Positions 7,548-28,507 of a stretch of DNA of 64,000 nucleotides are shown in pieces; position 1 is the first letter of the stretch, and each line of letters begins with the position of its first letter. Both the position numbers and the translations under genes were made by a program. The stretch is from assembly GCA_964367745.1 (NCBI GenBank), contig CAYIYK010000003.1:10248-74247 (forward strand). The letters are read 5' to 3'. The notes beneath the pieces were generated by a model. The model was not told the DNA's origin and made no database searches. It saw only the letters and a program-made list of their open reading frames with translations. The stretch comes from an uncultured Candidatus Saccharibacteria bacterium. Lineage in GTDB: Bacteria; Patescibacteriota; Minisyncoccia; Phycocordibacterales; PALSA-1337.

Positions 7548-7549
7548 AT

Positions 7550-8107: not shown

Positions 8108-8132
8108 TTTTAATTTAATTAACTAGTAACTA

Positions 8133-8810: not shown

Positions 8811-8830
8811 ATCGCACATTATAACAGATA

Positions 8831-10471
<1,641 letters not shown>

Positions 10472-10804
10472 TTATTTGATTATTGCTAATAATTCGCTTT
10501 CTTTTACTATATAGTATTCTTCATCATTTATTTTTACTTTATCTCCCCATTGAAATAGAACTTCATCACCTACTGATACAGATACTGGTATAACCTTTCC
10601 ATCTTCTGTTCTACCTTGACCTATAGCTACAACCTCTCCTCTTTTACCTCCTTTGTCTTCATTCACTGTTACTGGAATAATAATTCCTGATGCTGTTTTA
10701 TTTTCTTTATGTTTTGAATCTTCTTTTATTAAAACTCTATCAAATAGAGGTATGATAATCGTCGAACTGTTATTTGTTTTCGTCTTTTTTGTATCTTTTA
10801 TCAT
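10472..10804 (-). CDS. groES: Co-chaperonin GroES (Cpn10) with a short N-terminal extension
   Basis: IIPLFDRVLIKE ... GEVVAIGQGR ... VGDEVLF. It lies 3 nt upstream of groEL. Confidence 0.9.
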   Translation of the reverse strand: MIKDTKKTKTNNSSTIIIPLFDRVLIKEDSKHKENKTASGIIIPVTVNEDKGGKRGEVVAIGQGRTEDGKVIPVSVSVGDEVLFQWGDKVKINDEEYYIVKESELLAIIK

Positions 10805-10883
10805 AATGGAATTAAATTTTATAGTAATGAATGATCATAAGCAATATTGCACGTTTAAACTGGCTATGCTATAGTGTTCCGTA

Positions 10884-11114
10884 ATGAAGACGATCGCCTC
10901 TATACTACCGTACATACAGATTGTACTTGCTGTAATACTTTTAACAGCAATACTTCTTCAAAGAACTGGAGCACAAATCGGTGGTGCTTTTGGTGGTAGT
11001 GACAATTTTAGTTCTGCATTCCACACAAGACGGGGCTTCGAAAAACAACTCTTCATTGTAACAATCATAGTTGCAATACTCTTTGCAATTTCAGCGCTTT
11101 TGAGTCTTATTTAA
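10884..11114 (+). CDS. secG: Preprotein translocase subunit SecG
   Basis: 76 aa with two TM helices and the loop LLQRTGAQIGGAFGGS, typical of SecG. Confidence 0.75.
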   Translation: MKTIASILPYIQIVLAVILLTAILLQRTGAQIGGAFGGSDNFSSAFHTRRGFEKQLFIVTIIVAILFAISALLSLI

Positions 11115-11138
11115 CATTGACTAAAATCTATACATTAT

Positions 11139-12881
11139 ATGAAAGAGTTTCGCTTTAAAGGAAGTGAGAAACTTCTAGCTACTATTCATGCTTTTTCGGC
11201 CACAGAAAAGGTAGTTTTCACTTTTTTAACTATTGTTGCTTTGATCAGTTCACTTTCACTAGCTTGGAAAGTTAATTCTCTATTCCTTATACCTGTACCA
11301 GCTCATGGCGGTTCATTCTCTGAAGGCATGGTTGGATTACCACGATCTATAAACCCTGTTTTGGCTTTTACAGAAACCGACAAGAATCTTTCAAACCTTA
11401 TATATTCTGGTCTAATGAAATTCAATGGAAATGAAATAGTAAAGGATATCGCTGAATCATGTACAGTATCTGAAGATGGTTTGGTCTATGATTTTAAAAT
11501 TGGAGATAATGTGCGATTCCACGATGGAACTCAACTAACAACTGACGATATAGAATTTACAATACAAAAAATACAAGACAATGAAATAAAGAGTCCAAAA
11601 TATGTTGATTGGGCGAGTGTAATAGTTAAAAAGATCAGTCCTACTGAAATACAATTTATACTAAGACAACCTTATGCACCTTTTCTTTCAAATACAACTA
11701 TAGGTATCATTCCAAAGAATATTTGGAAAAATCAAAGTTCAGAACAATTTATTTTTAATCAAAAAAACCTTGAACCTATAGGTTCTGGACCATATAAAGT
11801 GAATAATATTGTAAAGGATAAGGCTGGCACTCCTACTCAGTATTCCCTTTCTTCATTTAATAAATATCACAGTGGAGAAGCATATATTTCAAATATAAAT
11901 ATATTCTTCTATCAAAACGAGGATATGGCTATTGATGCATTCAAATCTGGAACAATACAAAACTTCGCAGGAGTCTCGCCTCAGAAGTCATATGAAATAT
12001 CTTCATCTACACAAAGTGTAAATATAATACACAATCCACTTCCTAGAATTTTTGGAGTATTTTTTAATCAAAATAATTCACCAGTATTGGCGAATAAAGA
12101 AGTGAGACAAGCTTTGAATATGGTAGTAGATAAAGATGCAATCATCGAAAAAGCACTTTATGGATATGCGGTAAATATCGATAGTCCAATACCACTAGAC
12201 GATGCAAGTAGTACAATCAAAAAAGAAAAACTAGATGTAGATAAAAATATTCAACTAGCAAAAGATCTATTATCAAAATCTGGTTGGGCAATAAATGAAA
12301 ATGGAATTCTTGAAAAAAAGACAAAAACAGTAAAACAAACTCTTGAACTATCTATATCAACCGCCGATTCTACAGATTTGAAACTGATTGCAGAAATGAT
12401 AAAGAAAAGTTGGGAAGAACTAGGAGCGAAGGTAACGGTCAAGGTTTATGAATTCGGAGATCTATCACAAAACATCATAAAAACTAGAAAATATGATGCA
12501 TTACTTTTTGGTGAAATAATAAATAAAGACCTAGATTTGTATGCATTCTGGCATTCATCACAAAGGAATTCTCCAGGATTGAATGTATCAATGTATGTAA
12601 ATAGTAAAGCAGACAAAATACTAGAGGATGCAAGGACATCATTTGATGACAAAGCGAGAGATACCCTTTATAAATCTTTCGAAGAAATAATAAAAGATGA
12701 TGTACCAGCAATATTCCTTTATTCCCCAGAATATCTATACATGATGTCAAAAGAGATAAATGGATACGACATGAAAACAATATCAAGCCCATCAGACAGA
12801 TTCTCAAATATAGACAAATGGTATATCAAGACAGACAAGGTATGGGAGATATTCGTCAAAAATACAAAAACAAATAAATAA
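11139..12881 (+). CDS. Family-5 (peptide/nickel type) ABC substrate-binding protein, membrane-anchored; orphan
   Basis: 580 aa with an N-terminal TM. VRFHDGTQLTTDDIEFT is the family-5 SBP hallmark. No permease or ATPase gene is adjacent. Confidence 0.8.
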   Translation: MKEFRFKGSEKLLATIHAFSATEKVVFTFLTIVALISSLSLAWKVNSLFLIPVPAHGGSFSEGMVGLPRSINPVLAFTETDKNLSNLIYSGLMKFNGNEIVKDIAESCTVSEDGLVYDFKIGDNVRFHDGTQLTTDDIEFTIQKIQDNEIKSPKYVDWASVIVKKISPTEIQFILRQPYAPFLSNTTIGIIPKNIWKNQSSEQFIFNQKNLEPIGSGPYKVNNIVKDKAGTPTQYSLSSFNKYHSGEAYISNINIFFYQNEDMAIDAFKSGTIQNFAGVSPQKSYEISSSTQSVNIIHNPLPRIFGVFFNQNNSPVLANKEVRQALNMVVDKDAIIEKALYGYAVNIDSPIPLDDASSTIKKEKLDVDKNIQLAKDLLSKSGWAINENGILEKKTKTVKQTLELSISTADSTDLKLIAEMIKKSWEELGAKVTVKVYEFGDLSQNIIKTRKYDALLFGEIINKDLDLYAFWHSSQRNSPGLNVSMYVNSKADKILEDARTSFDDKARDTLYKSFEEIIKDDVPAIFLYSPEYLYMMSKEINGYDMKTISSPSDRFSNIDKWYIKTDKVWEIFVKNTKTNK

Positions 12882-12889
12882 TTAATAAA

Positions 12890-14791
12890 ATGGAAAACAC
12901 AAAAACAAATACAAACACAACAGCAAATACGAATGCGAACACAAATACAACTGCAAGTACAAACACGCATGCAGGAACTGGTCATGCCAGAGGTTCACAT
13001 TCAGGTCATAGTCCTAGACGACCCGTATCTAGATCACATGGAATGAGACCAGCTCGTCCACCTGATGCTACACAAATGCATAAAAAAGTTGAGGACACTG
13101 TCCCGGCTTTGGCTCCAAACTCTATCCGTATAATTCCGCTTGGAGGTGTGGAGGAAATTGGTAAGAACATGACTATGGTTGAATATGGAAACGATATAAT
13201 CATTATCGATATAGGTTTCCAATTCAAAGATGAGAATACTCCTGGAATCGATTATATTCTTCCGAACACAAAGTATCTTGAAGAAAGAAAGGATAAAATA
13301 AGAGCTGTGATAATAACTCACGGTCACCTAGACCACATAGGTGGTATTCCTTATGTAATGCCAAGAATTGGTAATCCACCACTATATACAAGAATGCTTA
13401 CTTCAGTAATGGTGAAAAAGCGTCAAGAAGAATTTACTCATGTTCCACCTCTAGATATAAAAATAGTGGAAAAAGACGAAACAATATCATTGGGTGCTTT
13501 GAAAGTGAAATTCTTCGCTGTAACTCACACTATTCCAGATGCTATGGGAGTTGTTATACAAACTCCATTTGGTTCAGTAGTACACACCGGTGACCTAAAA
13601 CTAGATCACGTAGAAGGAATACCAACTGAAGCAGAAGAAGCTGAATACGATAGGGTTTTCAAGAATGAAAAAGTATTACTTCTAATGGCTGATTCTACAA
13701 ACGTAGAAAATCCTGGTTTCTCAATGCCAGAAAAAACAGTTCATAAAAATATTGAAGAAATAATCAAGAATACAAAAGGTAGATTGATCATTGCAACATT
13801 CGCTTCCCTACTAGAAAGAATGCTAAAGATTATAGAATTCTCAGAAAAATATGGAAAGAAAGTGGTTGTGGAAGGACGAAGTATGAAAACAAATATCGAG
13901 ATTTGTATGAATCTTGGTCTTTTGAAACCTAAAAAAGATACTTTGATCACAGTTGAAGAAATAGATAACTTCCCTCCTGAGAGAATCGTAGTTCTAGCAA
14001 CTGGGGCTCAAGGCGATGAATTCGCAGCGATGATGAGAATGTCTAATAAGACTCACAAATATATTAAGATAAATAAAAGAGATACTATTCTTCTTTCTTC
14101 ATCTATCGTTCCAGGGAATGAAAGAGCAGTTCAAAAACTAAAAGACAATCTTTCAAGACAAGGAGCTAGTATTATTCACTACAGAATTGCTGATGTTCAC
14201 TCTTCAGGACATGCAAACCATGATGAAACAGCTTGGATACATAAGAAAATAAATGCCAAGTTCTTCATACCAGTTCACGGTTATCACTATATGTTGAGAG
14301 TGCACGGTGAAATAGCAAAAGAAACAAATGGACTAACTGAAGATCAAATAGTAATCCCTGACAATGGTTCTATCATCGAGATACAAGATGGTGGTGCAAA
14401 GATAGTTAAAATAAAAGAAAAGGCACCATCTGGTATCGTTATGGTTGATGGATTCTCAGTTGGAGATATACAGGATGTTGTTATACGTGATAGACAAATG
14501 CTTGCTCAAGACGGAATCTTCATTGTCTTTGCAATTATAAATTCTCAAACAGGTAAACTAAAGAAATCACCGGATATTATATCTAGAGGATTCGTTTATC
14601 TAAGAGAATCACAAGAACTTCTACATCACACAAGAATAATAATCAAAAATACAATTGATGAATCTACAAAAGGAATGAATCCTATAAACATAGACTTCGT
14701 CAAAACAAGTATTAGTGATAATGTAAGTAAATTCCTACTTCAAAAGACTGCTAAAAGACCTATAGTTATCCCAGTATTACTGACTATTTAA
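12890..14791 (+). CDS. rnj: Ribonuclease J with a ~75-aa low-complexity basic N-terminal extension
   Basis: IRIIPLGGVEEIGKNM, ITHGHLDHIGG (metallo-beta-lactamase motif), beta-CASP and HSSGHA are present. Alternative starts are at M52 (13043) and M63 (13076). Confidence 0.9.
   Translation: MENTKTNTNTTANTNANTNTTASTNTHAGTGHARGSHSGHSPRRPVSRSHGMRPARPPDATQMHKKVEDTVPALAPNSIRIIPLGGVEEIGKNMTMVEYGNDIIIIDIGFQFKDENTPGIDYILPNTKYLEERKDKIRAVIITHGHLDHIGGIPYVMPRIGNPPLYTRMLTSVMVKKRQEEFTHVPPLDIKIVEKDETISLGALKVKFFAVTHTIPDAMGVVIQTPFGSVVHTGDLKLDHVEGIPTEAEEAEYDRVFKNEKVLLLMADSTNVENPGFSMPEKTVHKNIEEIIKNTKGRLIIATFASLLERMLKIIEFSEKYGKKVVVEGRSMKTNIEICMNLGLLKPKKDTLITVEEIDNFPPERIVVLATGAQGDEFAAMMRMSNKTHKYIKINKRDTILLSSSIVPGNERAVQKLKDNLSRQGASIIHYRIADVHSSGHANHDETAWIHKKINAKFFIPVHGYHYMLRVHGEIAKETNGLTEDQIVIPDNGSIIEIQDGGAKIVKIKEKAPSGIVMVDGFSVGDIQDVVIRDRQMLAQDGIFIVFAIINSQTGKLKKSPDIISRGFVYLRESQELLHHTRIIIKNTIDESTKGMNPINIDFVKTSISDNVSKFLLQKTAKRPIVIPVLLTI
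12896..12967 (+). repeat. Imperfect ACAAAY hexanucleotide tract encoding (Thr-Asn)n
   Basis: aacacaaaaacaaatacaaacacaacagcaaatacgaatgcgaacacaaatacaactgcaagtacaaacacg encodes TKTNTNTTANTNANTNTTASTNT at the RNase J N-terminus. Confidence 0.7.
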
Positions 14792-14814
14792 ACTTGATGT
14801 TATAATTAACATCA

Positions 14815-15987
14815 ATGAAGCATCATCACAGTATAAAAAAAGCGAGTGCACTTTATAGTATAAGTGTAATCGCTTTTTTCCTTGCACTACATACAAGTAT
14901 TCCAACTTACTTTAACTCTAGCTTTCTATCAGGAATAACTGATGCAAAAACAGTGAGTATTGTATATTTGATAATATCTCTAACTACGATTGTGGGATTA
15001 TTATCTATGGATAGTGTTTTACATAGATTTGGTAATCTAAATACATCTATCGCTTTTATACTAGTTCAGATTTTTGTGTTCTACGGTTTGATAACATCAA
15101 CTTCCCCAAACACTTTGCTTTTCTTATTTATCATCGGTTCCAGTATGATTAGTTTAATTGGTTTTACTATCGATATTTTCCTCCAAAAAGGCACCGATTT
15201 AGGTCATACCGGAGGTATACGAGGTATGGTTATGACTGCGACAAATAGCGCATGGATACTTGGACCACTTCTTGGAGGTATGTTGGTTATTGGAAATAAT
15301 TATAAAGGAATATACATTGCTGGATTCGCTCTACTTTTCCCGCTTATATACTTGGTACATAGAAACTTCAAAGATTTTAAAGATTCACACTATGTTCAGG
15401 TCTCAGCCAGACAAACATTCCTAAAGATCCTTAGAGACAAAGACATCAGTAAGATCTTTATAATCAACATTGTATTGCAGACTTTTTATGCGTGGATGAT
15501 AGTCTATACCCCGATGTACCTTCATGAATATATAAAGTTTGATTGGAGTGAAATAAGTGTGATCTTTACTATAATGCTAATACCATTCGTACTTGTTCAA
15601 CTTCCTCTTGGTAAACTTGCTGATAAAAAGTGGGGTGAAAAAGAGTTGTTGGCAATCGGTTTTACAATCATTGGTATGACAACTGCGTCTTTAGTATTTT
15701 TTGATACAAAAAGCATTATGATTTGGTCTATCGCTCTTTTCTTAACACGTATTGGTGCGGCAACTGCAGAGATTATGATTGAGACTTATTTTTTCAAGAA
15801 AACTGATAAAAGAGATCCTGAAGTCTTGAGTATGTTTAGAATAACAAGACCATTGTCATATTTTATTGCGCCAATCATTACAACAGTCGGTCTTTCATAT
15901 ACAACTCAACCTTATTTATTTGTTATTTTAGGAGTTATCTGTCTATTGACCCTTTATCCTATTCTAAATATTAGAGATACGAACTAA
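14815..15987 (+). CDS. MFS transporter
   Basis: 390 aa and hydrophobic throughout, in two six-helix halves. The substrate is unknown. Confidence 0.75.
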   Translation: MKHHHSIKKASALYSISVIAFFLALHTSIPTYFNSSFLSGITDAKTVSIVYLIISLTTIVGLLSMDSVLHRFGNLNTSIAFILVQIFVFYGLITSTSPNTLLFLFIIGSSMISLIGFTIDIFLQKGTDLGHTGGIRGMVMTATNSAWILGPLLGGMLVIGNNYKGIYIAGFALLFPLIYLVHRNFKDFKDSHYVQVSARQTFLKILRDKDISKIFIINIVLQTFYAWMIVYTPMYLHEYIKFDWSEISVIFTIMLIPFVLVQLPLGKLADKKWGEKELLAIGFTIIGMTTASLVFFDTKSIMIWSIALFLTRIGAATAEIMIETYFFKKTDKRDPEVLSMFRITRPLSYFIAPIITTVGLSYTTQPYLFVILGVICLLTLYPILNIRDTN

Positions 15988-16008
15988 TTTTTTTATCCTA
16001 TTTATTTT

Positions 16009-16037
16009 TTGCTTTCCCACCCAAACTCATATATAAT
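16009..16037 (+). promoter_or_regulatory. Sigma-70-type promoter for eno
   Basis: TTGCTT (16009..16014), a 17-nt spacer, then TATAAT (16032..16037). Confidence 0.5.
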
Positions 16038-16056
16038 TTCGCTACAAAATTATTAA

Positions 16057-17364
<1,308 letters not shown>

Positions 17365-17390
17365 TTATTTAAGATAAACAAAATAAAAAA

Positions 17391-17424
17391 TAACCTCCAG
17401 ATCTAGAATTTGGAGGTTATTTTT
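17391..17424. terminator. Bidirectional intrinsic terminator after eno
   Basis: A 9-bp stem TAACCTCCA (17391..17399) / TGGAGGTTA (17411..17419) is flanked by A-rich sequence upstream and a T-tract downstream. Confidence 0.8.
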
Positions 17425-17725
17425 ATGATTTCGACACAAACATTACATTTGTGTTGGCGCTGCAGGTGCTGGTGCAGCTGGCTTTGGTGTCTTTGCCATA
17501 TTATTCAAGTCACAGGTTGATTAGCTCCTGTGTGTACAAATTATACCGTCGTTTCAAGTCACTTGACCTTTCCCTCATTTAGTTGACATTGAGTCAAAAC
17601 GTTGGGTAAAAAAGCTATATAAAATGGTACTTTTTAGGTGTGGTGTAATGATTGGTGATATTAGAACATTTAGATCAAGTTTTGGCTATATATATTAAAC
17701 TGGATATGCCATAATCTTCAAAAAC

Positions 17726-17754
17726 TTGACAAGATTATCATGGTATGCTAAGCT
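17726..17754 (+). promoter_or_regulatory. Promoter with an extended -10, driving the small-RNA candidate
   Basis: TTGACA (17726..17731), a 17-nt spacer, then TGcTAAGCT (17746..17754). Confidence 0.45.
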
Positions 17755-17760
17755 GTTTGT

Positions 17761-17878
17761 TAGAAGATAGCTTTACACGTTGGGGGCTACTTTCGTCCAC
17801 AAGGACTATCCAACGGTGAGGAGTGAGAGAATCCAATAAACAACCGGCGCTAATTTCTCTCTGGGCGCCGGTTTTTTC
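17761..17878 (+). ncRNA. Candidate small non-coding RNA (~118 nt), family unknown
   Basis: It is bounded by the promoter above and a strong terminator. No ATG occurs in the transcript. An internal helix is predicted: CGTTGG (17779..17784) pairs with CCAACG (17810..17815), enclosing a GTCC-ACAA-GGAC hairpin. A purine-rich single-stranded stretch GGTGAGGAGTGAGAGAA follows. Confidence 0.3.
17842..17878. terminator. Intrinsic terminator; it ends the sRNA candidate on + and gpmA on -
   Basis: A 9-bp GC-rich stem AACCGGCGC (17842..17850) / GCGCCGGTT (17865..17873) is followed by TTTTTT on the + strand. Confidence 0.75.
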
Positions 17879-17896
17879 TTGCCTAAATCTTAAACA

Positions 17897-18610
17897 TTAT
17901 AACGCCTGCTCTACCCCACCCTCCATCAAATAATATCTCTTCAAAGGTTTTAGATTCTCATCTAGCTCATAGACTATCGGAACTGCATTCTTTATCTCAA
18001 TTCCAACTATCTCATCATCACTTACGTTATCTATATGCTTCACCATTGCTCTTATACTATTGTTACTTGCAGAAATTAGAACTCTTTTACCACTCTTTAT
18101 AGCTGGCACGATCTCTGATTCCCAATATGGCATTACTCTCTTGATAGTATCTTCTAGTGATTCACCTAGCGGCAATTCACTTTCTGACAGATCAGCATAC
18201 ATTGGATCATGTCCTGGATATCTAGGATCATCTTTTGTTAATTGAAGTGGCTTGTCACTAAAACTTCTTCTCCATTTGTGTACTTGTTCTGGTGAATACT
18301 TTGCACCAATATCAGCATGCTTTTGTCCCTGCAAAGCTCCATAATGTCTTTCATTTAATCTCCAAGAGTATTTTATTGGTAAATCATTTATACCAATTTC
18401 ATTTACTACAGTATTTAAAGTATCTTTTGCTCTTTTAAGAACTGAACAAAAGGCCAAATCAAAACCGAAACCTGCATTTTTTAGATTTTTACCTGCAACT
18501 TTGGCTTCCTCAACTCCCTTCTCTGTTAGATCAACGTCTGTCCAACCACAAAACATCTTTTCAATATTATAAACTGTCTGTCCGTGTCTTATTATTACTA
18601 ATTTATACAT
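17897..18610 (-). CDS. gpmA: 2,3-bisphosphoglycerate-dependent phosphoglycerate mutase
   Basis: LVIIRHGQTVYN ... FCGWTDVDLT ... ERHYGALQG. Confidence 0.9.
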   Translation of the reverse strand: MYKLVIIRHGQTVYNIEKMFCGWTDVDLTEKGVEEAKVAGKNLKNAGFGFDLAFCSVLKRAKDTLNTVVNEIGINDLPIKYSWRLNERHYGALQGQKHADIGAKYSPEQVHKWRRSFSDKPLQLTKDDPRYPGHDPMYADLSESELPLGESLEDTIKRVMPYWESEIVPAIKSGKRVLISASNNSIRAMVKHIDNVSDDEIVGIEIKNAVPIVYELDENLKPLKRYYLMEGGVEQAL

Positions 18611-18641
18611 AGACCGATATTATACAGTAAACGATATTTTA

Positions 18642-19925
18642 TTAAAAGTTATTTTTATCTTCAGCTTTTTTAAACAAAGCTAGTACGATACTTACATATT
18701 TTACAAGGAGGATAATAGAGGTTACCCAGAATAAACCAAAACCTATACCCGCAAGGACGTCCGATAACCAATGCACGCCGAGATATACCCTACTGAATGC
18801 AGTAAGAATTATAGACAATACACACAGTACAACCAATATTTCTCTAACTATCATTGATTTTACTTTTACAATAAAGAAATATATAAGGAGGGTGAAGAAA
18901 ATCGTTGATGCAACAGCATGTCCACTTGGGAAGCTATATCCTTTTACTAGAATAAAAGCATTCTCAGGTCTAATCCTTGTAACTATGTTTTTTATTATAA
19001 AAGTGAATACATAACCACCACCTAGTGAGAATATTGATATTAAAGAATAATAATAATTCTTTTTATGAATCAAATAAGCAATCAATACCAAACTAATTCC
19101 AGTAATAAGTGTTGGACTAAATATATTCGTAAATATAAGCATAAAATCTCTCAACACTTCAGATGAATGGATAAAGAAGAAATTGTTTACAAAAACATCT
19201 AGTTCAAGCAGAAAAACTTTATCTGTAATTGCATCTTGTAGTGTTTTAAAGAATAAATAAAGTCCAAACAGATTGAAACCTAGAGTAATTAGTTCGTATT
19301 TTGCGAATATATGGAATTGTTTATTTATAAATCTATAACCCCACACTATCAATATACCAATCAAGACTGCTATGAAAATATACTTACCCAATACCTTTGA
19401 CATTATGTGATAGCTAGCACCAAAAACATAACCTAGTAGGACTGATGTAATTGACCAGATAAAAACACCAATAAAATCCCAAATCCAGAATATTTTTGTA
19501 TGTATTCCACTCGCGCCGAGCATAAATGGTGTAAGTGTTCTTGTAATAGGGTTATACTTTCCGAAAATTATTGCTTTTGCTTTATGTTCCTTTACAAGTT
19601 TTAAGATTTTATCTAGATATTCCTTCTTAACAAAAAAATATGGACCTAATTTCTCTAGAAGAGATATACCGTACTTTTTTCCCAAAATAAAACCAATAAT
19701 ATCTCCTAGTAAAGCCCCAATACTTACTACAGGTATGACCACAAACAAATTTAATATACCTAATTTTGATAAGAAACCTGAAATAATTACAATAGTGTGT
19801 CCTGGAACGAATTGTCCAATTATTGGTATACCTTCTACAATGGTTATTAAGAAAAGAAGTAGGTAACCACCGTTTTCAACTATAGTCTGTAAGTTACTAG
19901 ATACTGAGTGAAGAAAATTATACAT
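18642..19925 (-). CDS. DedA-family membrane protein fused to a PAP2 (undecaprenyl-diphosphate-phosphatase-type) domain
   Basis: The N-terminal half has the DedA pattern (VEGIPIIGQFVPGHTIVIISGF ... GDIIGFILGKKYG ... FGKYNPITRTL). The C-terminal half has all three PAP2 motifs: KNIVTRIRP, SFPSGHA and SRVYLGVHWLSDV. Confidence 0.85.
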   Translation of the reverse strand: MYNFLHSVSSNLQTIVENGGYLLLFLITIVEGIPIIGQFVPGHTIVIISGFLSKLGILNLFVVIPVVSIGALLGDIIGFILGKKYGISLLEKLGPYFFVKKEYLDKILKLVKEHKAKAIIFGKYNPITRTLTPFMLGASGIHTKIFWIWDFIGVFIWSITSVLLGYVFGASYHIMSKVLGKYIFIAVLIGILIVWGYRFINKQFHIFAKYELITLGFNLFGLYLFFKTLQDAITDKVFLLELDVFVNNFFFIHSSEVLRDFMLIFTNIFSPTLITGISLVLIAYLIHKKNYYYSLISIFSLGGGYVFTFIIKNIVTRIRPENAFILVKGYSFPSGHAVASTIFFTLLIYFFIVKVKSMIVREILVVLCVLSIILTAFSRVYLGVHWLSDVLAGIGFGLFWVTSIILLVKYVSIVLALFKKAEDKNNF

Positions 19926-20055
19926 AGATTAGGTATTTAATAATTATAACACAAACGAGATAAATTCCTGATAAAATTTTTATAATAGATTTCCACAAAT
20001 AAATTTGATTTAGAGCCATAATTATTCAATAATCAAATCATAAAAATACAATATT

Positions 20056-20724
20056 ATGAAAATCCTGATTATTGAAGACGATGTAGATATTTCCAGTTTC
20101 ATAAAGGACAATCTTACAGAGAGTACATATTCAGTTGAAGTCGCAAAGGATGGACCTGATGGATCATTTCTGGCCAGAACAAATTATCACGATGTTATCA
20201 TAATGGATTATTCACTTCCTTCAAAAGACGGAGTTTTGGTTTGTGAAGAGATAAGATCATCAGGTGTTGAAACACCCATAATATTCCTAACCGTACATAC
20301 AGACGTCAAAAAGAAGGTTAAAGCATTAGAAAAAGGTGCGGATGACTATATGACTAAACCTTTCTCTATCGAAGAGTTAAAAGCGAGGATACAAGCTCTA
20401 GTGCGTAGACCTAGGAAAATCGAAAGTCCTGTACTGATAGTTGGAGACCTAGTTTTGGATACACACAAAAGAACAGTTAGAAGAGGTGAAACACCTATTT
20501 ATCTAACTAGAAAGACTTATGATCTATTGGAATATCTTATGAGGAATAAAGGTATAGTGCTTTCAAGGGGATCTATAATGGAATATGTATGGAACTCAGA
20601 TAGTGATCCATTCTCAAATACCATAGAAGCACATATCCTAAACCTCAGAAAGAAAATCAATGTTAGAGGTAAAAAGGATATACTAAAGAATATTCCAGGT
20701 AGAGGTTATATTATGGGGTCCTAA
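20056..20724 (+). CDS. OmpR/PhoB-family response regulator (receiver plus winged helix); no kinase nearby
   Basis: MKILIIEDD, IIMDYSLPSKDG, YMTKPF and a C-terminal wHTH (LTRKTYDLLEYLMRN ... GRGYIM). Confidence 0.9.
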   Translation: MKILIIEDDVDISSFIKDNLTESTYSVEVAKDGPDGSFLARTNYHDVIIMDYSLPSKDGVLVCEEIRSSGVETPIIFLTVHTDVKKKVKALEKGADDYMTKPFSIEELKARIQALVRRPRKIESPVLIVGDLVLDTHKRTVRRGETPIYLTRKTYDLLEYLMRNKGIVLSRGSIMEYVWNSDSDPFSNTIEAHILNLRKKINVRGKKDILKNIPGRGYIMGS

Positions 20725-22957
20725 ACTTACCTTCTTCTATTTGCTTTATAGCCTCATCTACTTGAGACTTTATAAGTGGGAATCTTTCTTTTGCTTTCTT
20801 TAGAAGTTCAATCGCTTGGTATTCTTGTTTACTCAATAGATAAACATAAGCTAGAGATGAATATACTTCTTGATTGTCTTGATCTTTAGCTAATATCTTC
20901 TTATATATTTCAATAGCTTTATCGTACTGTTTTGACAATACATAAGCATTTATAACTCTTGGATCGCTGAATACTTCGAAATCATCTCCAAATAGCTTCT
21001 TCGCTTTTACTTCTTCACCTGCCGTTATAAGAGCTGTAACGTAAGTAGTCTTGGCGATTGGATTGTCTGTTGCTGATTGATACGCTTTGTCTAATATCTC
21101 AACTGCTTCTTTATTTTTACCGATATTTAGATAGTTGACGGCTAGTTCAAATATTATACTTTGCTTGTTTGGAGAAAGTTCATTTGCTTTTTCAAGTAGT
21201 GGTGTAGCTGTATTAAAATCTCTTATAGTATCATAATAACTTCCACCAATAATATATATTCTTGCATCATTCGGAGTTTTCTTTATTTGATTTTCTATTT
21301 CTTTCTTTGCCAAATCGTAGAATGCAGCCTTTTTATCTTGTTGCATTTGTGGATTTTGTATTACATTTGCTGAACAATTTAATAGTTGCTCAACCGACTC
21401 TTGATTTGCAACTGTCTGTCTTAGTTTGAATATTTTTTCAAATGGTACTACTGATACTGTTTGAGGATTTGAACAAGCTATAAGTGCATTTATAAGTCCT
21501 GTATTCGCTTGTATAGCGCGCACATTCACAAAATACATTGAAGTAATGAATAAGATAACAACAACAGGTACATATACATAATCTCTTACTGTTTCAGCAT
21601 CTTCAGATATTGATTTGCTGTAATTTTTAAATATAAATAAATCTTTATTCTTTCTTAATGAATGAACAAAAGCGAGCAATGTAAAGAACATTACATAACT
21701 TGTTTGATTGTCGAATACGAATACATTGTGTATTGCATATCCTACCAATAGACCGATAAGTATAGATTTTTCACCAATAGTTTTTTCACTTTTAATGATA
21801 AAGATTAGAGAGATTAAATATAGAGCTAGATACGCAACTAATCCTAGTATTCCTCCGGCAACAAACCAATCTAGGAAAACACTGTGTGCTCGATCAAACC
21901 ATTGCTCATGTCTCCACATTTCAGGATTGTAATGTGAATTGAATATATAGTTAAAGTTCTCTTGCCCAACTCCGATAATTGCTGTCTTTGGGCTCTCTGT
22001 AATTCCCTTTATAGCCATAGGCCAAATAAATCTTCTTGCTTGAGTCTTTGTATCTGAAATAGATATAGAAGCCAATCTTCCCAATACTTCATTCTTTTGA
22101 ATCCAACTAGCATTTCTATTGAAATAAAATAGTGTACCGATAACAACTACTAGTAGAATAACTGAACCAGAAACTACTCTACTTATATTTGATTGACCAC
22201 TACTCTTTCTACCAAAAATTGTATAAATAGCACATGAAGCAATAATAGCAATCGTCCAACCTATGATAGTTCCTCGAGTTGCTGTTTGAAACATTATAAA
22301 AGAGAAAAATGCTGCGGCAATAGCATATGAATAGAACAAATGCTTCTTTGCAAAATAACTTATAGCCAAATATCCCGCAATAAATGCATTAAATAACATA
22401 TAAACCGCCATGTATGCAGAGTTACCTAGAGATGCATCGACTCTACTTCCTTGATGTGTTTCTGCCCAACCGAAAAACTGTGTTAGACCGTAAAGTGCAG
22501 TTATAAATCCAGAAACAATTACAACATTGAAAAACTTATGCCAACTCTCTTTTGTCTTAAGTACTGAAGATAGAACCATGAAATAACCCCAAAGGTGTAT
22601 TATCATCAACCAACCTTCCATTCTTTCGAAGTTTGACCAAATACTTCTAAGTGGATTTAGACCAGCTAAGTCAGCAATCAGAGCAATAAGAGTAAATATA
22701 CCTATAGAAATAGATATTGCATTGCATCGCGGAAGAACACTTCTATCTGTTCCGACAACACTAGTGCCTCTTTCTCTGAAAACAAGAATCAGCCATAGAG
22801 CAAAGACAATTTCAACAATTATTCTAAAAGCGAATCCTTTACCAGTGATGAATGGAAAGAATAAAGAATTAACGACGTAAGTTGGGATAAATGGGATTAC
22901 TGCTAAACCGATAATAATTGCGTATTTGATTAAAGTATTTATTGTTGCATTGTTCAT
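20711..22957 (-). CDS. O-antigen-ligase-like (Wzy_C) polytopic membrane protein with a C-terminal TPR domain
   Basis: 748 aa. About 12 TM helices include the Wzy_C-like block MFQTATRGTIIGW. The C-terminal ~270 aa carry TPR-like repeats (AFYDLAKK, ANELSPNK, AYQSATDN, IEIYKKILAKDQDN). Confidence 0.8.
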   Translation of the reverse strand: MNNATINTLIKYAIIIGLAVIPFIPTYVVNSLFFPFITGKGFAFRIIVEIVFALWLILVFRERGTSVVGTDRSVLPRCNAISISIGIFTLIALIADLAGLNPLRSIWSNFERMEGWLMIIHLWGYFMVLSSVLKTKESWHKFFNVVIVSGFITALYGLTQFFGWAETHQGSRVDASLGNSAYMAVYMLFNAFIAGYLAISYFAKKHLFYSYAIAAAFFSFIMFQTATRGTIIGWTIAIIASCAIYTIFGRKSSGQSNISRVVSGSVILLVVVIGTLFYFNRNASWIQKNEVLGRLASISISDTKTQARRFIWPMAIKGITESPKTAIIGVGQENFNYIFNSHYNPEMWRHEQWFDRAHSVFLDWFVAGGILGLVAYLALYLISLIFIIKSEKTIGEKSILIGLLVGYAIHNVFVFDNQTSYVMFFTLLAFVHSLRKNKDLFIFKNYSKSISEDAETVRDYVYVPVVVILFITSMYFVNVRAIQANTGLINALIACSNPQTVSVVPFEKIFKLRQTVANQESVEQLLNCSANVIQNPQMQQDKKAAFYDLAKKEIENQIKKTPNDARIYIIGGSYYDTIRDFNTATPLLEKANELSPNKQSIIFELAVNYLNIGKNKEAVEILDKAYQSATDNPIAKTTYVTALITAGEEVKAKKLFGDDFEVFSDPRVINAYVLSKQYDKAIEIYKKILAKDQDNQEVYSSLAYVYLLSKQEYQAIELLKKAKERFPLIKSQVDEAIKQIEEGKFRTP

Positions 22958-22992
22958 AATATGGAGATGATATCATATTATGAACATGTTAT

Positions 22993-23940
22993 CTATTGAA
23001 ATTTCTTTAATTTATTGGCTATAAATATATCAGTATCTCTTCTAGATTCATAAGTCATACCTCCTGTATGTGGAGCGATGATTACATTTGAATATTCTTT
23101 TGCAAACTTCACTAATGGATGATTCTTGCAACTATTTTTTGTAAATAGAATCTCACCATCTAGAACGTCAGCTGTATAACCGGCAATCTTTTTTTGCTTT
23201 ATCATAGTCATCAAATCACCTTCATGAACTATTTTGCCTCTTGAAGTATTTATAAGATACGCAGTTTTCTTCATAAGACTCATAGTCTTTTTATTGAAAA
23301 GGAATTCTGTTTCTGGATTCAAATGTACGTGTATAGAAATAAAATCACTTTGTTTTATAAGCTCTTCGAAACTAACTTTTTTCCAATTTAGATTTGATGA
23401 TTCAACTTTTGGATCAGTGAATAGAACTTTCATACCCAAAGCCTCTCCATATCTTGCCATCCATTTTCCAAGTCTACCAAGTCCAACAACTCCCAATGTC
23501 TGACCATTCAGTGAATGCCCTTTGAACTTTTCTCTATTCCATTCCCCCTTTAGAACTGATTGAGTTGAACTAGGAATATGTCTTGAAGAAGATATGAGTA
23601 ATCCCAAAGCTAGTTCAGCAGTGCCAGTAATAGTATTTAGGAAATCATCTTCACCCTTTAGACTTAGAACTTTTATACCCTTTTCCTCAGCGTATTTTAA
23701 ATCGATATGATCCAAACCAGTTGTTGCGGTAACAAGGAACTTTAGATTTTTAGCTTTTGATAGGACTTCACTATTAAAGTTCAATCCCAAACCACAAACT
23801 ACTACATCATATTTTTCTATCTTTTTTAATAGTTCTTGATTTGTAGGTATAACATAATCAACCTTACCTAGAATGTTTAGAATCTTTTTTGCTTCAGGGT
23901 CGAAATCTTTACCGATTGTATTTAGTATTTTGTAGGCCAT
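22993..23940 (-). CDS. D-isomer-specific 2-hydroxyacid dehydrogenase family protein
   Basis: The NAD-binding motif is GVVGLGRLGKWMARYGEALGMKV. INTSRG and IIAPHTGG (catalytic His region) are also present. Confidence 0.85.
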   Translation of the reverse strand: MAYKILNTIGKDFDPEAKKILNILGKVDYVIPTNQELLKKIEKYDVVVCGLGLNFNSEVLSKAKNLKFLVTATTGLDHIDLKYAEEKGIKVLSLKGEDDFLNTITGTAELALGLLISSSRHIPSSTQSVLKGEWNREKFKGHSLNGQTLGVVGLGRLGKWMARYGEALGMKVLFTDPKVESSNLNWKKVSFEELIKQSDFISIHVHLNPETEFLFNKKTMSLMKKTAYLINTSRGKIVHEGDLMTMIKQKKIAGYTADVLDGEILFTKNSCKNHPLVKFAKEYSNVIIAPHTGGMTYESRRDTDIFIANKLKKFQ

Positions 23941-23978
23941 TAAGTAATTATCTATAAAATGAAGGAAAAAGCAAATGG

Positions 23979-24422
23979 TTAAACCTTCGGCACCTTTATT
24001 ATAACCAACCTAGCTTTCGTAGAAGTCTTATGTTGATGTGGCTCTCCAGCAGGAATCCATAACCAATCTCCAGGTTTCATCACAACTTCTGTTCCACCCT
24101 TTATTTCTTTTGCTTTCCATTCCCTATCATCTATACTCCCATCAGCATTCTTTTTTACCCAAGGGTCTACCATTTCTCCTCCATAGATAAAGATAACTTC
24201 TCCTTCAAGACAAAACCATAGATCAGCTTCATGCTTGTGTATCTCTGCTTCATTTGAAATATTTATATCCTCCAATATATTCATAGGAACTTTATTCAAA
24301 GCAGAAAAAGCTTTTAGAGGTTCCAAAAGTTTTTTTGTTGGCGTGTCGGCACTAGGACTTGATAGAGTACTATCGATTAAATCTTTACTGATAAAAGCAC
24401 AATTTGATTTATTATTTTCCAT
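23979..24422 (-). CDS. Cupin-domain protein
   Basis: The two cupin motifs are HKHEADLWFCLEGEV and GDWLWIPAGEPHQH. Confidence 0.7.
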   Translation of the reverse strand: MENNKSNCAFISKDLIDSTLSSPSADTPTKKLLEPLKAFSALNKVPMNILEDINISNEAEIHKHEADLWFCLEGEVIFIYGGEMVDPWVKKNADGSIDDREWKAKEIKGGTEVVMKPGDWLWIPAGEPHQHKTSTKARLVIIKVPKV

Positions 24423-24431
24423 TTAATTTAA

Positions 24432-26312
24432 TTAAAATTTAAATCCTTTTTTCTTTAATTCTTTTAACATGTACTCTGTGATAATCCAATCAAGTGGATA
24501 GTCTATATCTATAGATCTCTCTTTTGGTACTATATACCCTGCAATCTTATCTCCATATAACCTCTCTTCTTTCATAATCAAATCTCTTCTCATACAATAT
24601 ATTGCTGCACTTCTCTTGTATGCTACAGGTAGATCTTGTCTTCTTGTACCTTCTACTTCAGGAACAGAATATGCACTGATGAAGTCACCTTCTAATTTTT
24701 TAATCTTAATTGGATTTACATTACTTGGTACTTCAACTATTGATACTGCACTATCTGCTTTTGTATCTATAAGTTTTTGAATTGTTCCATCGATATCGTC
24801 TATAGTTCTAAAAGGTGAAGTTGGCTGAAGAATAACTACATAGTCGATAGTGATATTATTTTTCTTTTCATAAAAATCTATTGCATGTTGCATTACAGGA
24901 AGATGTGGAGTTGAATCTAGAGCCAATTCTTTTGGTCTCATAAAAGGTACATCTGCACCATACTTCTTACACACATCGGCAATCTCTTTGTCATCTGTTG
25001 AAACGATAAGATGATTTATCAATTTACTTTTCTTTGCAGCATCGATTGTATATGCAATAAGAGGTTTATTGCCAAGTTTCTTTATATTCTTACCCGGAAT
25101 ACCTTTTGACCCTCCGCGAGCTGTAATAACGCCAAGGACGTTTGGAGTTCTGTATTCCCTATCTACATGTTCTTCTGTAAGCGGTTCAAATTTCTTTATA
25201 TCTTTTATTATTTTTTTATCCAAAATATCATGGAAAAGATTCGAGAAAATTCCATTTAGATGAAGTCTTGGTCTCATAGCGTAAACCATATCACTCGTGA
25301 TTATTGTTCCAGCTTTAATATCTCTTGAAGCAACGAGTGTTTTGTTGAAATAAGGTCTAAACTTATTTTGTGCACCTTCCAATTCTTTTTCCTTTTGACC
25401 GTAGAAAATATTTGTATCTATTTTCTTATATTCATTTTTCTTAATACCAGAGACCAATTGTTTCATTTCTTCTGGAGTTACTGAAGCTTTATGGTCTGAA
25501 CCCCAAAGGCCTCGGTCTAGAGAAAAGTGTTTCTCTATAACCTGCGCACCCATTTTTACTGCAGCTAAAGGAATAGTATTATCTCCAACTGAATGATCAG
25601 AAAAACCGATGATCGCTTGAGGGTATTTTTCTCTAAAATATTCTATAGTAGAAAGGTTAAAAGCTTCTGGAGGACATGGATATTCACTAACGCAATATAG
25701 AATAATAATTGGTGACCCACGCTTTGTTATATAGTCAACAACGTCATCCAACTCTTTGTGACTAACCATTCCTGTTGAAATGATTATTGGTTTTTGTGTC
25801 TTTGTAATAAAGTCCAAAAGAACATGATCCTGAACATCACCAGAACCTACTTTCCAGAAAGGTACATCTAGATTCTCAAGCTTAACCGCTGCCATTCTAG
25901 ACATCGGAGTTGAGAAGAATATAATTCCCTTTTTTTCTGAATATCTTTTTATCTCTTTGAAGAATTCTATAGGTGCTTCTTCAGTATTTCTTTTAACCCA
26001 AGAATATCTATCACTGCCTTTGAAGTGCGGAGAAACTACATTTATATTTGCTTGTTCATCTTCAACTTCATGAGTTTGAAATTTCACAGCATGTGCACCA
26101 GCTTTTACTGCTTCGTCGATAAGCTTTTTTGCATTTTTAATATAGACTTTTAGAGGTTGAGACTCTTGTGTTTGTATAAAATTCTTACCGATTTCAGCAA
26201 TAACAAAAACTTTATCTTTTGATATGATCTTAGAGATAGCGTGAGGTTTCACTATTTTTGAATTTTTGTTCTTACTGGCTTTAGAAGATTTAACAGACTT
26301 TTTTGTTTTCAT
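24432..26312 (-). CDS. Fused NeuB-like nonulosonic (sialic) acid synthase plus NeuA-like CMP-acid cytidylyltransferase
   Basis: NeuB blocks: VIAEIGKNF, AVKFQTH, PIIISTGM, VSEYPCPPEAFNL, GFSDHS and VIEKHFSLDR. A SAF-like segment (RDIKAGTIITSDMV) follows. From about aa 393 the sequence VLGVITARGGSKGIPGKNIKKLGNKPLIAYTI is typical of acylneuraminate cytidylyltransferases. Confidence 0.85.
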   Translation of the reverse strand: MKTKKSVKSSKASKNKNSKIVKPHAISKIISKDKVFVIAEIGKNFIQTQESQPLKVYIKNAKKLIDEAVKAGAHAVKFQTHEVEDEQANINVVSPHFKGSDRYSWVKRNTEEAPIEFFKEIKRYSEKKGIIFFSTPMSRMAAVKLENLDVPFWKVGSGDVQDHVLLDFITKTQKPIIISTGMVSHKELDDVVDYITKRGSPIIILYCVSEYPCPPEAFNLSTIEYFREKYPQAIIGFSDHSVGDNTIPLAAVKMGAQVIEKHFSLDRGLWGSDHKASVTPEEMKQLVSGIKKNEYKKIDTNIFYGQKEKELEGAQNKFRPYFNKTLVASRDIKAGTIITSDMVYAMRPRLHLNGIFSNLFHDILDKKIIKDIKKFEPLTEEHVDREYRTPNVLGVITARGGSKGIPGKNIKKLGNKPLIAYTIDAAKKSKLINHLIVSTDDKEIADVCKKYGADVPFMRPKELALDSTPHLPVMQHAIDFYEKKNNITIDYVVILQPTSPFRTIDDIDGTIQKLIDTKADSAVSIVEVPSNVNPIKIKKLEGDFISAYSVPEVEGTRRQDLPVAYKRSAAIYCMRRDLIMKEERLYGDKIAGYIVPKERSIDIDYPLDWIITEYMLKELKKKGFKF

Positions 26313-26348
26313 ATGTTATATCCTATGCTATTTAAAAATTTTTGCAAC

Positions 26349-26379
26349 AAAAAAAATCCACCCAGTAAAACCAGGTGGA
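26349..26379 (-). terminator. Intrinsic terminator after the GC-rich methyltransferase
   Basis: On the minus strand the stem is TCCACC..GGTGGA (26374..26379 / 26357..26362), followed by T8 (the A-run 26349..26356 on the + strand). Confidence 0.6.
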
Positions 26380-26408
26380 AATTGTGTTGAGTGTTCAGTA
26401 CTCGAAGA

Positions 26409-27347: not shown

Positions 27348-27459
27348 TTTTTTAAGAACTGCATCATGACTTTATTATCATGATTTTCGTTTAATCTATA
27401 ACATATTATTGTAAATTTAGCAATAGTACGATATTTAAATATTAAACTATAGAAAATAA

Positions 27460-27488
27460 TTGACGTAATACTTTTTTAATGATATTGT
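27460..27488 (+). promoter_or_regulatory. Promoter for the island transporter gene
   Basis: TTGACG (27460..27465), a 17-nt spacer, then TATTGT (27483..27488). Confidence 0.4.
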
Positions 27489-27523
27489 ATATTAAATTTA
27501 AACAAACAGTTCATTAAAAAAAT

Positions 27524-28477: not shown

Positions 28478-28507
28478 TGTCTAAGTAAATACAGTAATCT
28501 CTCAAAG

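What the first reader, a model, noticed from the sequence alone, without database searches (positions are those of the whole stretch)
17726..17878. Stand-alone promoter-to-terminator unit with no ORF: candidate ~118-nt small RNA in an unusually long spacer
The eno-gpmA spacer is 532 bp (17365..17896), about ten times the typical spacer in this window. Inside it, a promoter TTGACA-17 nt-TGcTAAGCT (with extended -10) is followed ~110 nt later by the strongest terminator in the window: a 9-bp GC stem AACCGGCGC/GCGCCGGTT plus T6.

The predicted transcript contains no ATG. A helix is predicted in which CGTTGG (17779..17784) pairs with CCAACG (17810..17815), enclosing a GTCC-ACAA-GGAC hairpin. A purine-rich single strand GGTGAGGAGTGAGAGAA follows. 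The 8-mer ACGTTGGG also occurs at 17599..17606.

No downstream + strand gene exists that it could regulate in cis; the next one starts at 20056. The transcript is too short for RNase P RNA, tmRNA or 6S RNA. I could not find the SRP helix-8 GGAA/AGCA motifs.
Basis: seen in the sequence. Interest (0 to 1): 0.5.

Follow-up and report, generated by a model that had tools for sequence, protein, structure and literature searches.

The report
Strain-specific ORF-less promoter–terminator cassette
The promoter-to-terminator unit is really there, but it is a strain-specific, ORF-less filling of a swappable small-gene slot next to gpmA in a Saccharibacteria genome, absent from the closest relatives, so it is at best a young orphan RNA and not a conserved regulator.

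Summary
The described features exist: TTGACA-17-TGcTAAGCT (17726..17754), an ATG-free stretch of about 116 nt, and a 10-bp GC hairpin plus T-run (17842..17877). No Rfam family matches on either strand.

The window is a Saccharibacteria genome. In strains whose gpmA protein is at least 96% identical, the 3' flank of gpmA is hypervariable. It is empty in most strains. Others carry an IS element, or orphan ORFs of 54-129 aa. Only three nearly identical contigs carry this unit. About 195 bp (17701..17895) are missing from the nearest relatives, and TTAAAC repeats flank that stretch.

One sister strain (L055) has, at the same junction and on the same strand, the same -35 block (TCTTCARAAACTTGACA). 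It also has a homologous terminator: 7 of 9 stem pairs are identical and 2 are changed on both sides. Its tail matches too. There, these parts frame an 88-aa membrane ORF. So the promoter and terminator are an inherited gene frame, not chance.

The 110-bp interior of the window's unit matches nothing I could search. It folds no better than shuffled sequence (z = -1.3), and no target stands out in the window.

Best reading: an ORF-less cassette that gives a short strain-specific RNA, more likely a relic or by-product than an established regulator. Interest is low.

The parts
17365..17896 (.). eno-gpmA spacer, 532 bp
   Evidence: ORF list and Pfam: Enolase 16072..17364(+), His_Phos_1 (gpmA-like) 17897..18610(-)
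17388..17424 (.). Bidirectional terminator hairpin shared by eno (+) and the tiny ORF (-)
   Evidence: -20.3 kcal/mol on + and -16.9 on -, with T-runs on both sides; conserved in all close relatives
17443..17499 (-). 18-codon Pro/Ala-rich ORF (MAKTPKPAAPAPAAPTQM*). It is part of the conserved block that makes the spacer long in every relative. It is not part of the candidate unit.
   Evidence: Translation; same length and same start and stop in L002 and L026
17500..17694 (-). Conserved upstream block of the tiny ORF. It holds hairpin CACAGG 17511-16 / CCTGTG 17527-32, an invariant TATAAT (+ strand ATTATA 17540-45), and the palindrome TTGACAYTGAGTCAA 17583-97.
   Evidence: Nine-sequence alignment; L002 has one double change in the hairpin stem
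17695..17700 (.). Left copy of the TTAAAC direct repeat at the junction of the variable segment
   Evidence: Empty sites have one related copy (TTTTAAC / TTTCAGC).
17701..17889 (.). Strain-variable segment, absent from L001, L002, L032-L043 and L050/51
   Evidence: Alignments and BLAST break points at 17696-17701 and 17874-17893
17709..17743 (.). Inverted repeat CCATAATCTT / AAGATT(ATC)ATGG that brackets the -35 hexamer
   Evidence: Read from the sequence; not present in L055; function not tested
17715..17731 (+). -35 block TCTTCAAAAACTTGACA, shared with the promoter of the 88-aa ORF in L055 (16 of 17 bases)
   Evidence: Local alignment p about 0.001 against shuffles; alignment A3; found only at this locus
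17726..17754 (+). Sigma-70-type promoter: TTGACA, 17-nt spacer ending in TGc, then TAAGCT
   Evidence: Only match to the pattern in 64 kb, 0.17 expected
17761..17877 (+). Predicted ORF-less transcript, about 116 nt, 48% G+C in a 33% G+C genome. The start is inferred from the -10 position.
   Evidence: No ATG and no ORF with a plausible start; G+C; no Rfam, protein or DNA homologue
17778..17815 (+). Stem-loop: CGTTGG/CCAACG enclosing GTCC-ACAA-GGAC
   Evidence: In the minimum-free-energy and centroid folds; not more stable than shuffles (z = -1.29)
17815..17831 (+). Purine-rich tract GGTGAGGAGTGAGAGAA. GAGAGAA (17825-31) is complementary to TTCTCTC (17855-61) in the terminator loop.
   Evidence: Sequence; no target in the window scores better than shuffles. 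This genome's genes lack Shine-Dalgarno motifs, so reading the tract as a ribosome-binding site is not compelling.
17842..17877 (.). Intrinsic terminator: 10-bp stem AACCGGCGCT/GGCGCCGGTT, 12-nt loop, T-run. It is oriented for the + strand and is also terminator-like on the - strand, 25 nt past the gpmA stop.
   Evidence: -17.4 kcal/mol on + and -16.0 on - with tail TGTTTATT. Homologous to the L055 ORF terminator: 7 of 9 pairs identical, 2 changed on both sides.
17874..17895 (.). Tail TTTTCTTGCCTAAATCTTAAAC, including the right TTAAAC repeat. It is shared with the different cassettes of L026, L048 and L055.
   Evidence: unique in the window
17897..18610 (-). gpmA-like phosphoglycerate mutase, the conserved anchor of the variable site
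   Evidence: Pfam His_Phos_1; homologues named 2,3-bisphosphoglycerate-dependent phosphoglycerate mutase by their sources

Best explanation
The unit is the ORF-less occupant of a swappable small-gene slot in a hypervariable islet just 3' of gpmA in a Saccharibacteria population.

Shown:
- The left edge of the slot (the -35 block TCTTCARAAACTTGACA) and its right edge (GC-rich intrinsic terminator plus the tail TTTTTC..AATCTTAAAC) are inherited.
- In strain L055 the same edges frame a Shine-Dalgarno site and an 88-aa membrane ORF.
- In the window they frame 110 bp of unrelated, GC-enriched sequence with no usable reading frame.

Inferred:
- RNA polymerase starts near 17761 and stops at 17877, giving a non-coding RNA of about 116 nt that is specific to this strain.
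- The hairpin insulates gpmA from this convergent transcription and probably also ends the gpmA transcript.
- The RNA itself is most likely a young or relic product without an established regulatory role, that is, a cassette whose protein cargo was lost or replaced, rather than a conserved riboregulator.
For: - The organism and the variable site were identified from relatives. There are at least seven states of the gpmA 3' flank among strains whose gpmA is at least 96% identical.
- The unit is absent from L001, L002, L032-L043 and L050.
- It is identical in L025 and L047. L047 differs from the window by 4 of 981 nt, all inside gpmA.
- L055 shares the junction, the -35 block (p about 0.001) and the terminator plus tail (p about 0.005). 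The stems keep pairing through two double substitutions.
- The promoter pattern is unique in the window.
- The T-run orientation is the same in W, L026, L048 and L055.
- The interior has no ORF and no Rfam hit. It has no homologue in phages, plasmids, viral contigs or JGI metagenomes, none in Pfam or the protein database, none in other cassettes, and none by a covariance model.
- The body fold is not significant, and no target signal was found.
- The hairpin also qualifies as a - strand terminator.
Against: - No expression data are available, so the transcript is only inferred.
- The interior shows no remnant of the L055 ORF or of its UTRs. A simple deletion of that ORF therefore does not explain it; the cargo was exchanged or is of separate origin.
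- The promoter looks fully intact and even has an extended -10.
- The interior is GC-enriched (48% against 33%) and has the classic sRNA layout of a stem-loop, a single-stranded tract and a terminator.
- Another ORF-less unit at the same position in L026 is strongly structured (z = -5.4).
- All of these points fit a functional RNA cargo as well as, or better than, a relic.
Confidence: 0.45

Rival explanations
1. It is a genuine, strain-specific trans-acting small RNA carried as the cargo of the cassette. It is transcribed from its own promoter and stabilised by the 5' stem-loop and the terminator hairpin. It would pair with pyrimidine-rich targets through the exposed tract GGUGAGGAGUGAGAGAA, or through its 5' end.
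For: - The promoter is intact and strong, and the terminator is intact.
- There is no ORF.
- G+C is 48% in a 33% genome.
- The layout is the classic sRNA one.
- The interior is not a remnant of the L055 ORF.
- L026 has a strongly structured ORF-less unit in the same slot and orientation (z = -5.4).
- Lineage-specific sRNAs are known to arise in rearranged intergenic regions (PMC4350180).
Against: - It is absent from the nearest relatives.
- Only identical copies are known, so no covariation can be measured.
- The body fold is not better than shuffles, and the fold gives no strand preference.
- The best duplex with 57 translation-start regions in the window is no better than for shuffled tracts: 37% of shuffles are as good for the purine tract and 100% for the 5' end.
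- No Rfam family matches.
- Similarity to the L026 unit is not significant (p = 0.08-0.35).
Confidence: 0.3
2. There is no meaningful + strand product. The GC hairpin is simply the intrinsic terminator of gpmA, working in both directions, and the promoter is silent or irrelevant.
For: - The hairpin sits 25 nt after the gpmA stop and scores as a - strand terminator (-16.0 kcal/mol, tail TGTTTATT).
- The older gpmA terminator seen in L002 (ATTACACC/GGTGTAAT plus T-run) has decayed in the window.
- The eno terminator is likewise bidirectional.
Against: - The better T-run is on the + strand.
- The positionally equivalent hairpins of L026 and L048 have a T-run only on the + strand.
- The hairpin is homologous to the terminator of a + strand ORF in L055.
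- The -35 block is homologous to that ORF's promoter, so the promoter is not a chance match.
Confidence: 0.15
3. It is a miniature mobile element (MITE-like or IS-derived) that inserted next to gpmA and duplicated its target.
For: - 6-bp TTAAAC repeats flank the roughly 189-bp segment, and empty sites carry one related copy.
- The site also received an IS element with an rve transposase in L044/L045.
Against: - There are no terminal inverted repeats.
- There is no second copy in 64 kb.
- There is no similarity to the L044 IS or to any other locus.
- There is no match in phages, plasmids or viral contigs.
- The edges are shared with a cassette of different content, which fits exchange of cargo by recombination rather than transposition.
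Confidence: 0.05
4. It encodes a tiny protein, either the 24-codon ATG ORF at 17745..17819 or the TTG/GTG ORFs.
For: Open frames of 19-24 codons exist. Many genes of this genome appear leaderless and lack a Shine-Dalgarno site, so the absence of a ribosome-binding site is not decisive.
Against: - The ATG at 17745 lies inside the -10 region, upstream of the predicted start.
- No ATG occurs in the predicted transcript.
- The 36-codon GTG ORF runs through the terminator.
- There is no Pfam match.
Confidence: 0.03

Closest known systems
Intergenic promoter-to-Rho-independent-terminator sRNA genes, including lineage-specific sRNAs born in rearranged intergenic regions (Raghavan et al. 2015, PMC4350180)
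   Same: A sigma-70-type promoter, about 116 nt without an ORF, a stem-loop, a single-stranded tract and an intrinsic terminator. It lies in a non-syntenic, recently rearranged intergenic region.
   Different: There is no evidence of expression, no conservation, no covariation, no significant fold and no target. The organism is a Saccharibacteria (CPR) bacterium, and I found no sRNA biology described for such organisms in the one literature search I ran.
Horizontal-transfer hotspots or flexible genomic islets between conserved core genes (general concept, from my own knowledge)
   Same: The same site between eno and gpmA holds different small orphan genes, an IS element, or nothing, in near-identical strains.
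   Different: Several occupants share the same -35 block and the same terminator and tail while the cargo differs. In at least two strains the cargo has no ORF.
Bidirectional intrinsic terminators between convergent genes
   Same: A GC hairpin between convergent transcription units, with an A-rich 5' side and a T-rich 3' side, that scores on both strands.
   Different: The T-run is clearly better on the + strand. The hairpin descends from the terminator of a + strand cassette gene.
Integron gene cassettes
   Same: Interchangeable small cargo at one site, with a short recurrent junction motif (TTARAC).
   Different: Each unit has its own promoter and terminator. Cassettes lie in both orientations. 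No attC-like R''/R' pairing was seen, and no integrase gene was seen in the loci examined.

Membership tests
Trans-encoded bacterial sRNA | Own promoter and intrinsic terminator, with no ORF between them | tested here: met
   Promoter and terminator are homologous to those of a real gene in L055.
Trans-encoded bacterial sRNA | Discrete transcript of the predicted size | not testable with these tools
   No transcriptome data are available
Trans-encoded bacterial sRNA | Sequence or structure conserved in relatives; covariation | tested here: not met
   Absent from L001, L002, L032-L043 and L050. The only copies are identical. The covariance model finds no relative.
Trans-encoded bacterial sRNA | Fold more stable than expected by chance | tested here: inconclusive
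   z = -1.9 with the terminator and -1.29 without it. The opposite strand gives z = -2.4.
Trans-encoded bacterial sRNA | Complementarity to mRNA translation-start regions beyond chance | tested here: not met
   RNAduplex against 57 start regions in the window is no better than for shuffled tracts. The rest of the genome was not available.
Any Rfam 15 family (SRP, 6S, tmRNA, riboswitches and others) | Covariance-model score at or near the gathering threshold | tested here: not met
   No gathering hits in 64 kb. The best local hits have E above 1 and only match terminators.
Relic of a protein-coding cassette (pseudogene) | Flanking signals homologous to those of an intact gene at the same site | tested here: met
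   The L055 88-aa ORF cassette has the same junction, -35 block, terminator and tail
Relic of a protein-coding cassette (pseudogene) | Residual similarity of the interior to a coding sequence | tested here: not met
   No similarity to the L055 ORF (p above 0.4), to Pfam, or to the 5.8 billion protein clusters for the longest open frame
MITE or IS-derived element | Terminal inverted repeats, target-site duplication, several copies | tested here: not met
   6-bp TTAAAC direct repeats are present. There are no terminal inverted repeats and no second copy in the window or the loci.
Bidirectional intrinsic terminator | Stable GC hairpin with U-rich tails on both strands, between convergent units | tested here: met
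   -17.4 kcal/mol with tail TTTTTTCTT on +, and -16.0 with tail TGTTTATT on -. Termination efficiency was not measured.
Integron cassette | attC recombination site and a nearby intI integrase | tested here: inconclusive
   No R''/R' inverted core sites were seen by eye at the junctions. The window was not systematically scanned for an integrase. The neighbouring genes examined carry none.
Type I toxin-antitoxin locus | Small hydrophobic toxin ORF with an overlapping antisense RNA | tested here: not met
   There is no hydrophobic micro-ORF on either strand of 17640..17900

The most novel reading that the evidence does not exclude
The gpmA-proximal slot is a genuine exchange site. Its fixed frame (the shared -35 block, and the shared terminator and tail) is kept by selection, while the cargo is swapped between strains. 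That cargo can be an RNA gene as well as a protein gene. On this reading the window's 116-nt RNA and the strongly structured L026 unit would be strain-specific riboregulators, or RNA components of accessory systems such as defence or immunity, in an episymbiotic CPR bacterium whose genes largely lack Shine-Dalgarno sites.
Probability: 0.2. Interest if true: 0.5.

Novelty: new member of a known kind. Interest (0 to 1): 0.22.

Why it matters
If the RNA is functional, it would be one of the first candidate riboregulators in Saccharibacteria. It would also be an example of RNA and protein genes alternating as cargo in one promoter-terminator frame.

As it stands, the main value is a caution. A textbook promoter-terminator pair in a long spacer turned out to be strain-specific content of a variable islet. 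The length of the spacer is explained instead by a different, conserved element: an 18-codon ORF with its leader.

Tried and rejected
- **Known RNA family.** Rfam found nothing with gathering thresholds over the whole window, nor in permissive mode over 17340-17920 or over seven related loci. ARAGORN found nothing.
- **Other copies.** I found none in the window, in phage or plasmid records, or with four patterns in viral contigs. One JGI metagenome scan gave only a chance 20-mer inside a high-GC coding region (L046).
- **Shared 5' motif.** A motif (GTTA..GAA..TAGC) seemed shared by the window, L026 and L048. Alignment tests rejected it, with p = 0.26-0.72. The full-interior comparison of the window with L026 gave p = 0.08-0.35.
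- **Interior as a decayed copy of the L055 ORF.** Rejected, with p above 0.4.
- **Interior as a fragment of a protein gene.** The 52-codon frame in phase with gpmA has no Pfam match and no database homologue.
- **Purine tract as a fossil ribosome-binding site.** This is weakened because the genome's own genes have no Shine-Dalgarno motif.
- **Structure-aware search.** A covariance model built from the unit found only itself and generic terminators.
- **Target prediction in the window.** Nothing scored above shuffled controls.
- **The repeated 8-mer ACGTTGGG.** It is not conserved in relatives, so it is chance.
- **Literature.** One search for Saccharibacteria small RNAs returned nothing applicable.

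Full report
**What is in the sequence**

The spacer between eno (16072..17364, +) and a gpmA-like histidine-phosphatase gene (17897..18610, -) is 532 bp.
- TTGACA at 17726-31, a 17-nt spacer ending in TGc, and TAAGCT at 17749-54.
- A stretch with no ATG.
- A helix CGTTGG (17778-83) / CCAACG (17810-15) that encloses GTCC-ACAA-GGAC.
- The purine tract 17815-31.
- A 10-bp hairpin AACCGGCGCT / GGCGCCGGTT (17842-73) that runs into a T-run (17872-77).

The complete promoter pattern occurs only here in 64 kb, where 0.17 matches are expected.

Some details need correction:
- The hairpin is one of the strongest terminator-like sites but not the strongest.
- The helix coordinates are one base off.
- The RNA body is not more stable than shuffled sequence (z = -1.29; z = -1.9 with the terminator). 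The complementary strand folds just as well.
- Rfam gives no hit at gathering thresholds in the whole window. In permissive mode on both strands it returns only terminator look-alikes with E above 1.

**Where the window comes from, and what relatives show**

The gpmA protein finds Candidatus Saccharibacteria genomes. L001 is 97% identical and L002 is 80% identical. Both share the part of the spacer from 17440 to about 17696 but lack the candidate unit.

I then fetched 30 more contigs through the 90%-identity gpmA cluster. Homology to the window always stops at 17696-17701 and resumes at 17874-17893. Among strains whose gpmA is at least 96% identical, the 3' flank of gpmA has at least seven states:
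- Empty, in L001, L032-L043 and L050/51, with spacers of 332-335 bp.
- The window's unit, in the window, L025 and L047.
- An 835-bp insert with a 129-aa Cys-rich ORF plus an ORF-less stretch, in L026-L030.
- A different hairpin unit, in L048.
- A 121-128-aa membrane ORF, in L049 and L052/53.
- An IS with an rve transposase plus further genes, in L044/45.
- An 88-aa ORF plus a 54-aa ORF, in L055.

None of the small ORFs matches Pfam or PADLOC. L047 differs from the window at 4 of 981 positions, all inside gpmA. The three copies of the unit therefore carry no comparative information. TTAAAC occurs at both edges of the variable segment (17695-700 and 17890-95), and empty sites have one related copy.

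**The key comparison: L055**

L055 has a cassette at exactly the same junction (after ...TTGGCTATATATTAAAC) and on the window's + strand. It reads tcttcagaaacTTGACA-17 nt-TATAGT, then GGGGG seven bases before an ATG, then an 88-aa membrane ORF. A terminator AGCGGCGATC/GGTCGCCGCT follows, and then TTTTTCATGAATCTTAACC.

The window shares three things with it:
- The 17-nt -35 block, 16 of 17 bases, with local-alignment p about 0.001.
- The terminator right arm plus tail, with p about 0.005.
- The stem itself. With a one-pair shift, seven of nine stem pairs are identical and two differ on both sides while staying paired.

The same tail also follows the unrelated hairpins of L026 and L048, and in all of them the T-run is on the window's + strand. 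So the promoter is not a chance match, and the terminator was built for + strand transcripts. Both are the inherited frame of a small accessory-gene slot.

**The interior**

The window's interior runs from just after TTGACA to the left arm of the terminator, about 110 bp. It shows no detectable similarity to any of the following:
- The L055 ORF or its UTRs (p above 0.4).
- Any other cassette.
- The L026 unit (p = 0.08-0.35).
- Pfam, or the protein database for its longest open frame.
- Phage, plasmid, viral or JGI metagenome sequence.
- Anything found by a covariance model built from the unit.

It has no plausible ORF. It is GC-enriched, at 48% against 33% for the window. No translation-start region in the window pairs with its single-stranded tracts better than with shuffled versions. 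Because this genome's genes lack Shine-Dalgarno motifs and often have TATAAT just upstream of the ATG, the purine tract is not convincingly a fossil ribosome-binding site.

**Interpretation**

Two things are shown. The unit is real, and it is strain-specific. Its transcription signals descend from a gene cassette.

Two things are inferred. It yields a non-coding RNA of about 116 nt (17761..17877). Its hairpin also shields gpmA from convergent transcription and may terminate gpmA, since it scores -16.0 kcal/mol with tail TGTTTATT on the minus strand, 25 nt past the stop.

Whether the RNA has a function is open. I rank the readings as follows:
- An ORF-less cassette whose RNA is a relic or a young by-product: 0.45.
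- A genuine strain-specific trans-acting sRNA: 0.30. In its favour are the intact strong promoter, the GC enrichment, the absence of any ORF remnant, and the strongly structured ORF-less unit in the same slot of L026 (z = -5.4).
- A terminator only, with a silent promoter: 0.15.
- A MITE-like element: 0.05.
- A micro-protein: 0.03.

The transcription-unit reading survives.

**Comparison with known things**

The unit works like the classic intergenic promoter-terminator sRNA genes. It sits in the kind of rearranged, non-syntenic intergenic region where lineage-specific sRNAs have been shown to arise (PMC4350180). It fails the tests that would make it a supported member of that class, namely conservation, covariation, fold significance and a target.

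The locus as a whole behaves like a horizontal-transfer hotspot between core genes. It is not an integron, because the units have their own promoters and terminators, lie in both orientations, and show no attC. It is not a MITE, because it has no inverted repeats and is single-copy in 64 kb.

**Verdict**

This is an ordinary but real feature: a new, strain-limited member of a known kind. Interest is low (0.22). The most novel reading not excluded is a fixed promoter-terminator frame whose cargo alternates between protein and RNA genes in a CPR bacterium. I give it a probability of about 0.2.

Noticed in passing
window 17443..17499 (-), with leader up to about 17545: An 18-codon Pro/Ala-rich ORF (MAKTPKPAAPAPAAPTQM*) keeps the same length, start and stop in L002 (MTKGPKAPTPPVPPAPQA*). 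It is preceded by an invariant TATAAT and a hairpin CACAGG/CCTGTG with an invariant loop, and L002 shows one double compensatory change in the stem. This conserved block explains the long spacer in all relatives. It looks like a real micro-gene or leader peptide.
   Followed up: partly
window 17583..17597: The palindrome TTGACAYTGAGTCAA is invariant in nine relatives, including the 80%-identity outgroup. It may be an operator upstream of the tiny ORF's promoter.
   Followed up: no
whole window (36 gene starts listed): The genes have no Shine-Dalgarno motif. Many have TATAAT 6-20 nt before the ATG, which suggests widespread leaderless or very short-leader mRNAs in this Saccharibacteria lineage.
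   Followed up: partly
L026:3228-3365 (-), identical in L027-L030: An ORF-less unit sits next to gpmA in another strain. It has an extended -10 (TGaTATCAT) and a rod-like fold closed by GUUAUCUGAA/UUCAGGUAAC, then a terminator. It folds at -40.8 kcal/mol (z = -5.4, 0 of 200 shuffles as good) and has no Rfam hit. It is a better structured-RNA candidate than the window's unit, and it lies divergent from a 129-aa Cys-rich orphan ORF.
   Followed up: partly
gpmA 3' flank in L001, L026, L032-L055: The site is hypervariable, with at least seven states among strains whose gpmA is at least 96% identical. They include an IS (rve transposase), a NUDIX gene, and orphan ORFs of 54, 88, 97, 121-129 aa. The junctions recur at a TTARAC motif.
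   Followed up: partly
window 17825..17831 and 17855..17861: GAGAGAA in the purine tract is exactly complementary to UUCUCUC in the 12-nt terminator loop. It could form an alternative helix, but a pseudoknot with the full terminator stem looks sterically unlikely. Its significance was not assessed.
   Followed up: no
window 17709..17743: The inverted repeat CCATAATCTT / AAGATT(ATC)ATGG brackets the -35 hexamer. It is absent from the homologous L055 promoter.
   Followed up: no
window 17741..17896 (-): 52 codons stay open in phase with gpmA directly after its TAA stop. The translation has no Pfam match and no database homologue, so this is probably chance helped by the higher local G+C.
   Followed up: partly
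window 1..64000: There is no tRNA gene and no Rfam gathering-level hit anywhere in 64 kb.
   Followed up: no
window 17655..17690 compared with L002:4745-4775: L002 has a clear gpmA terminator (AATTACACC-CAAG-TGGTGTAATTTT on the gpmA strand) in the conserved block. The equivalent window sequence has lost the hairpin, which fits the inserted GC hairpin having taken over gpmA termination.
   Followed up: no
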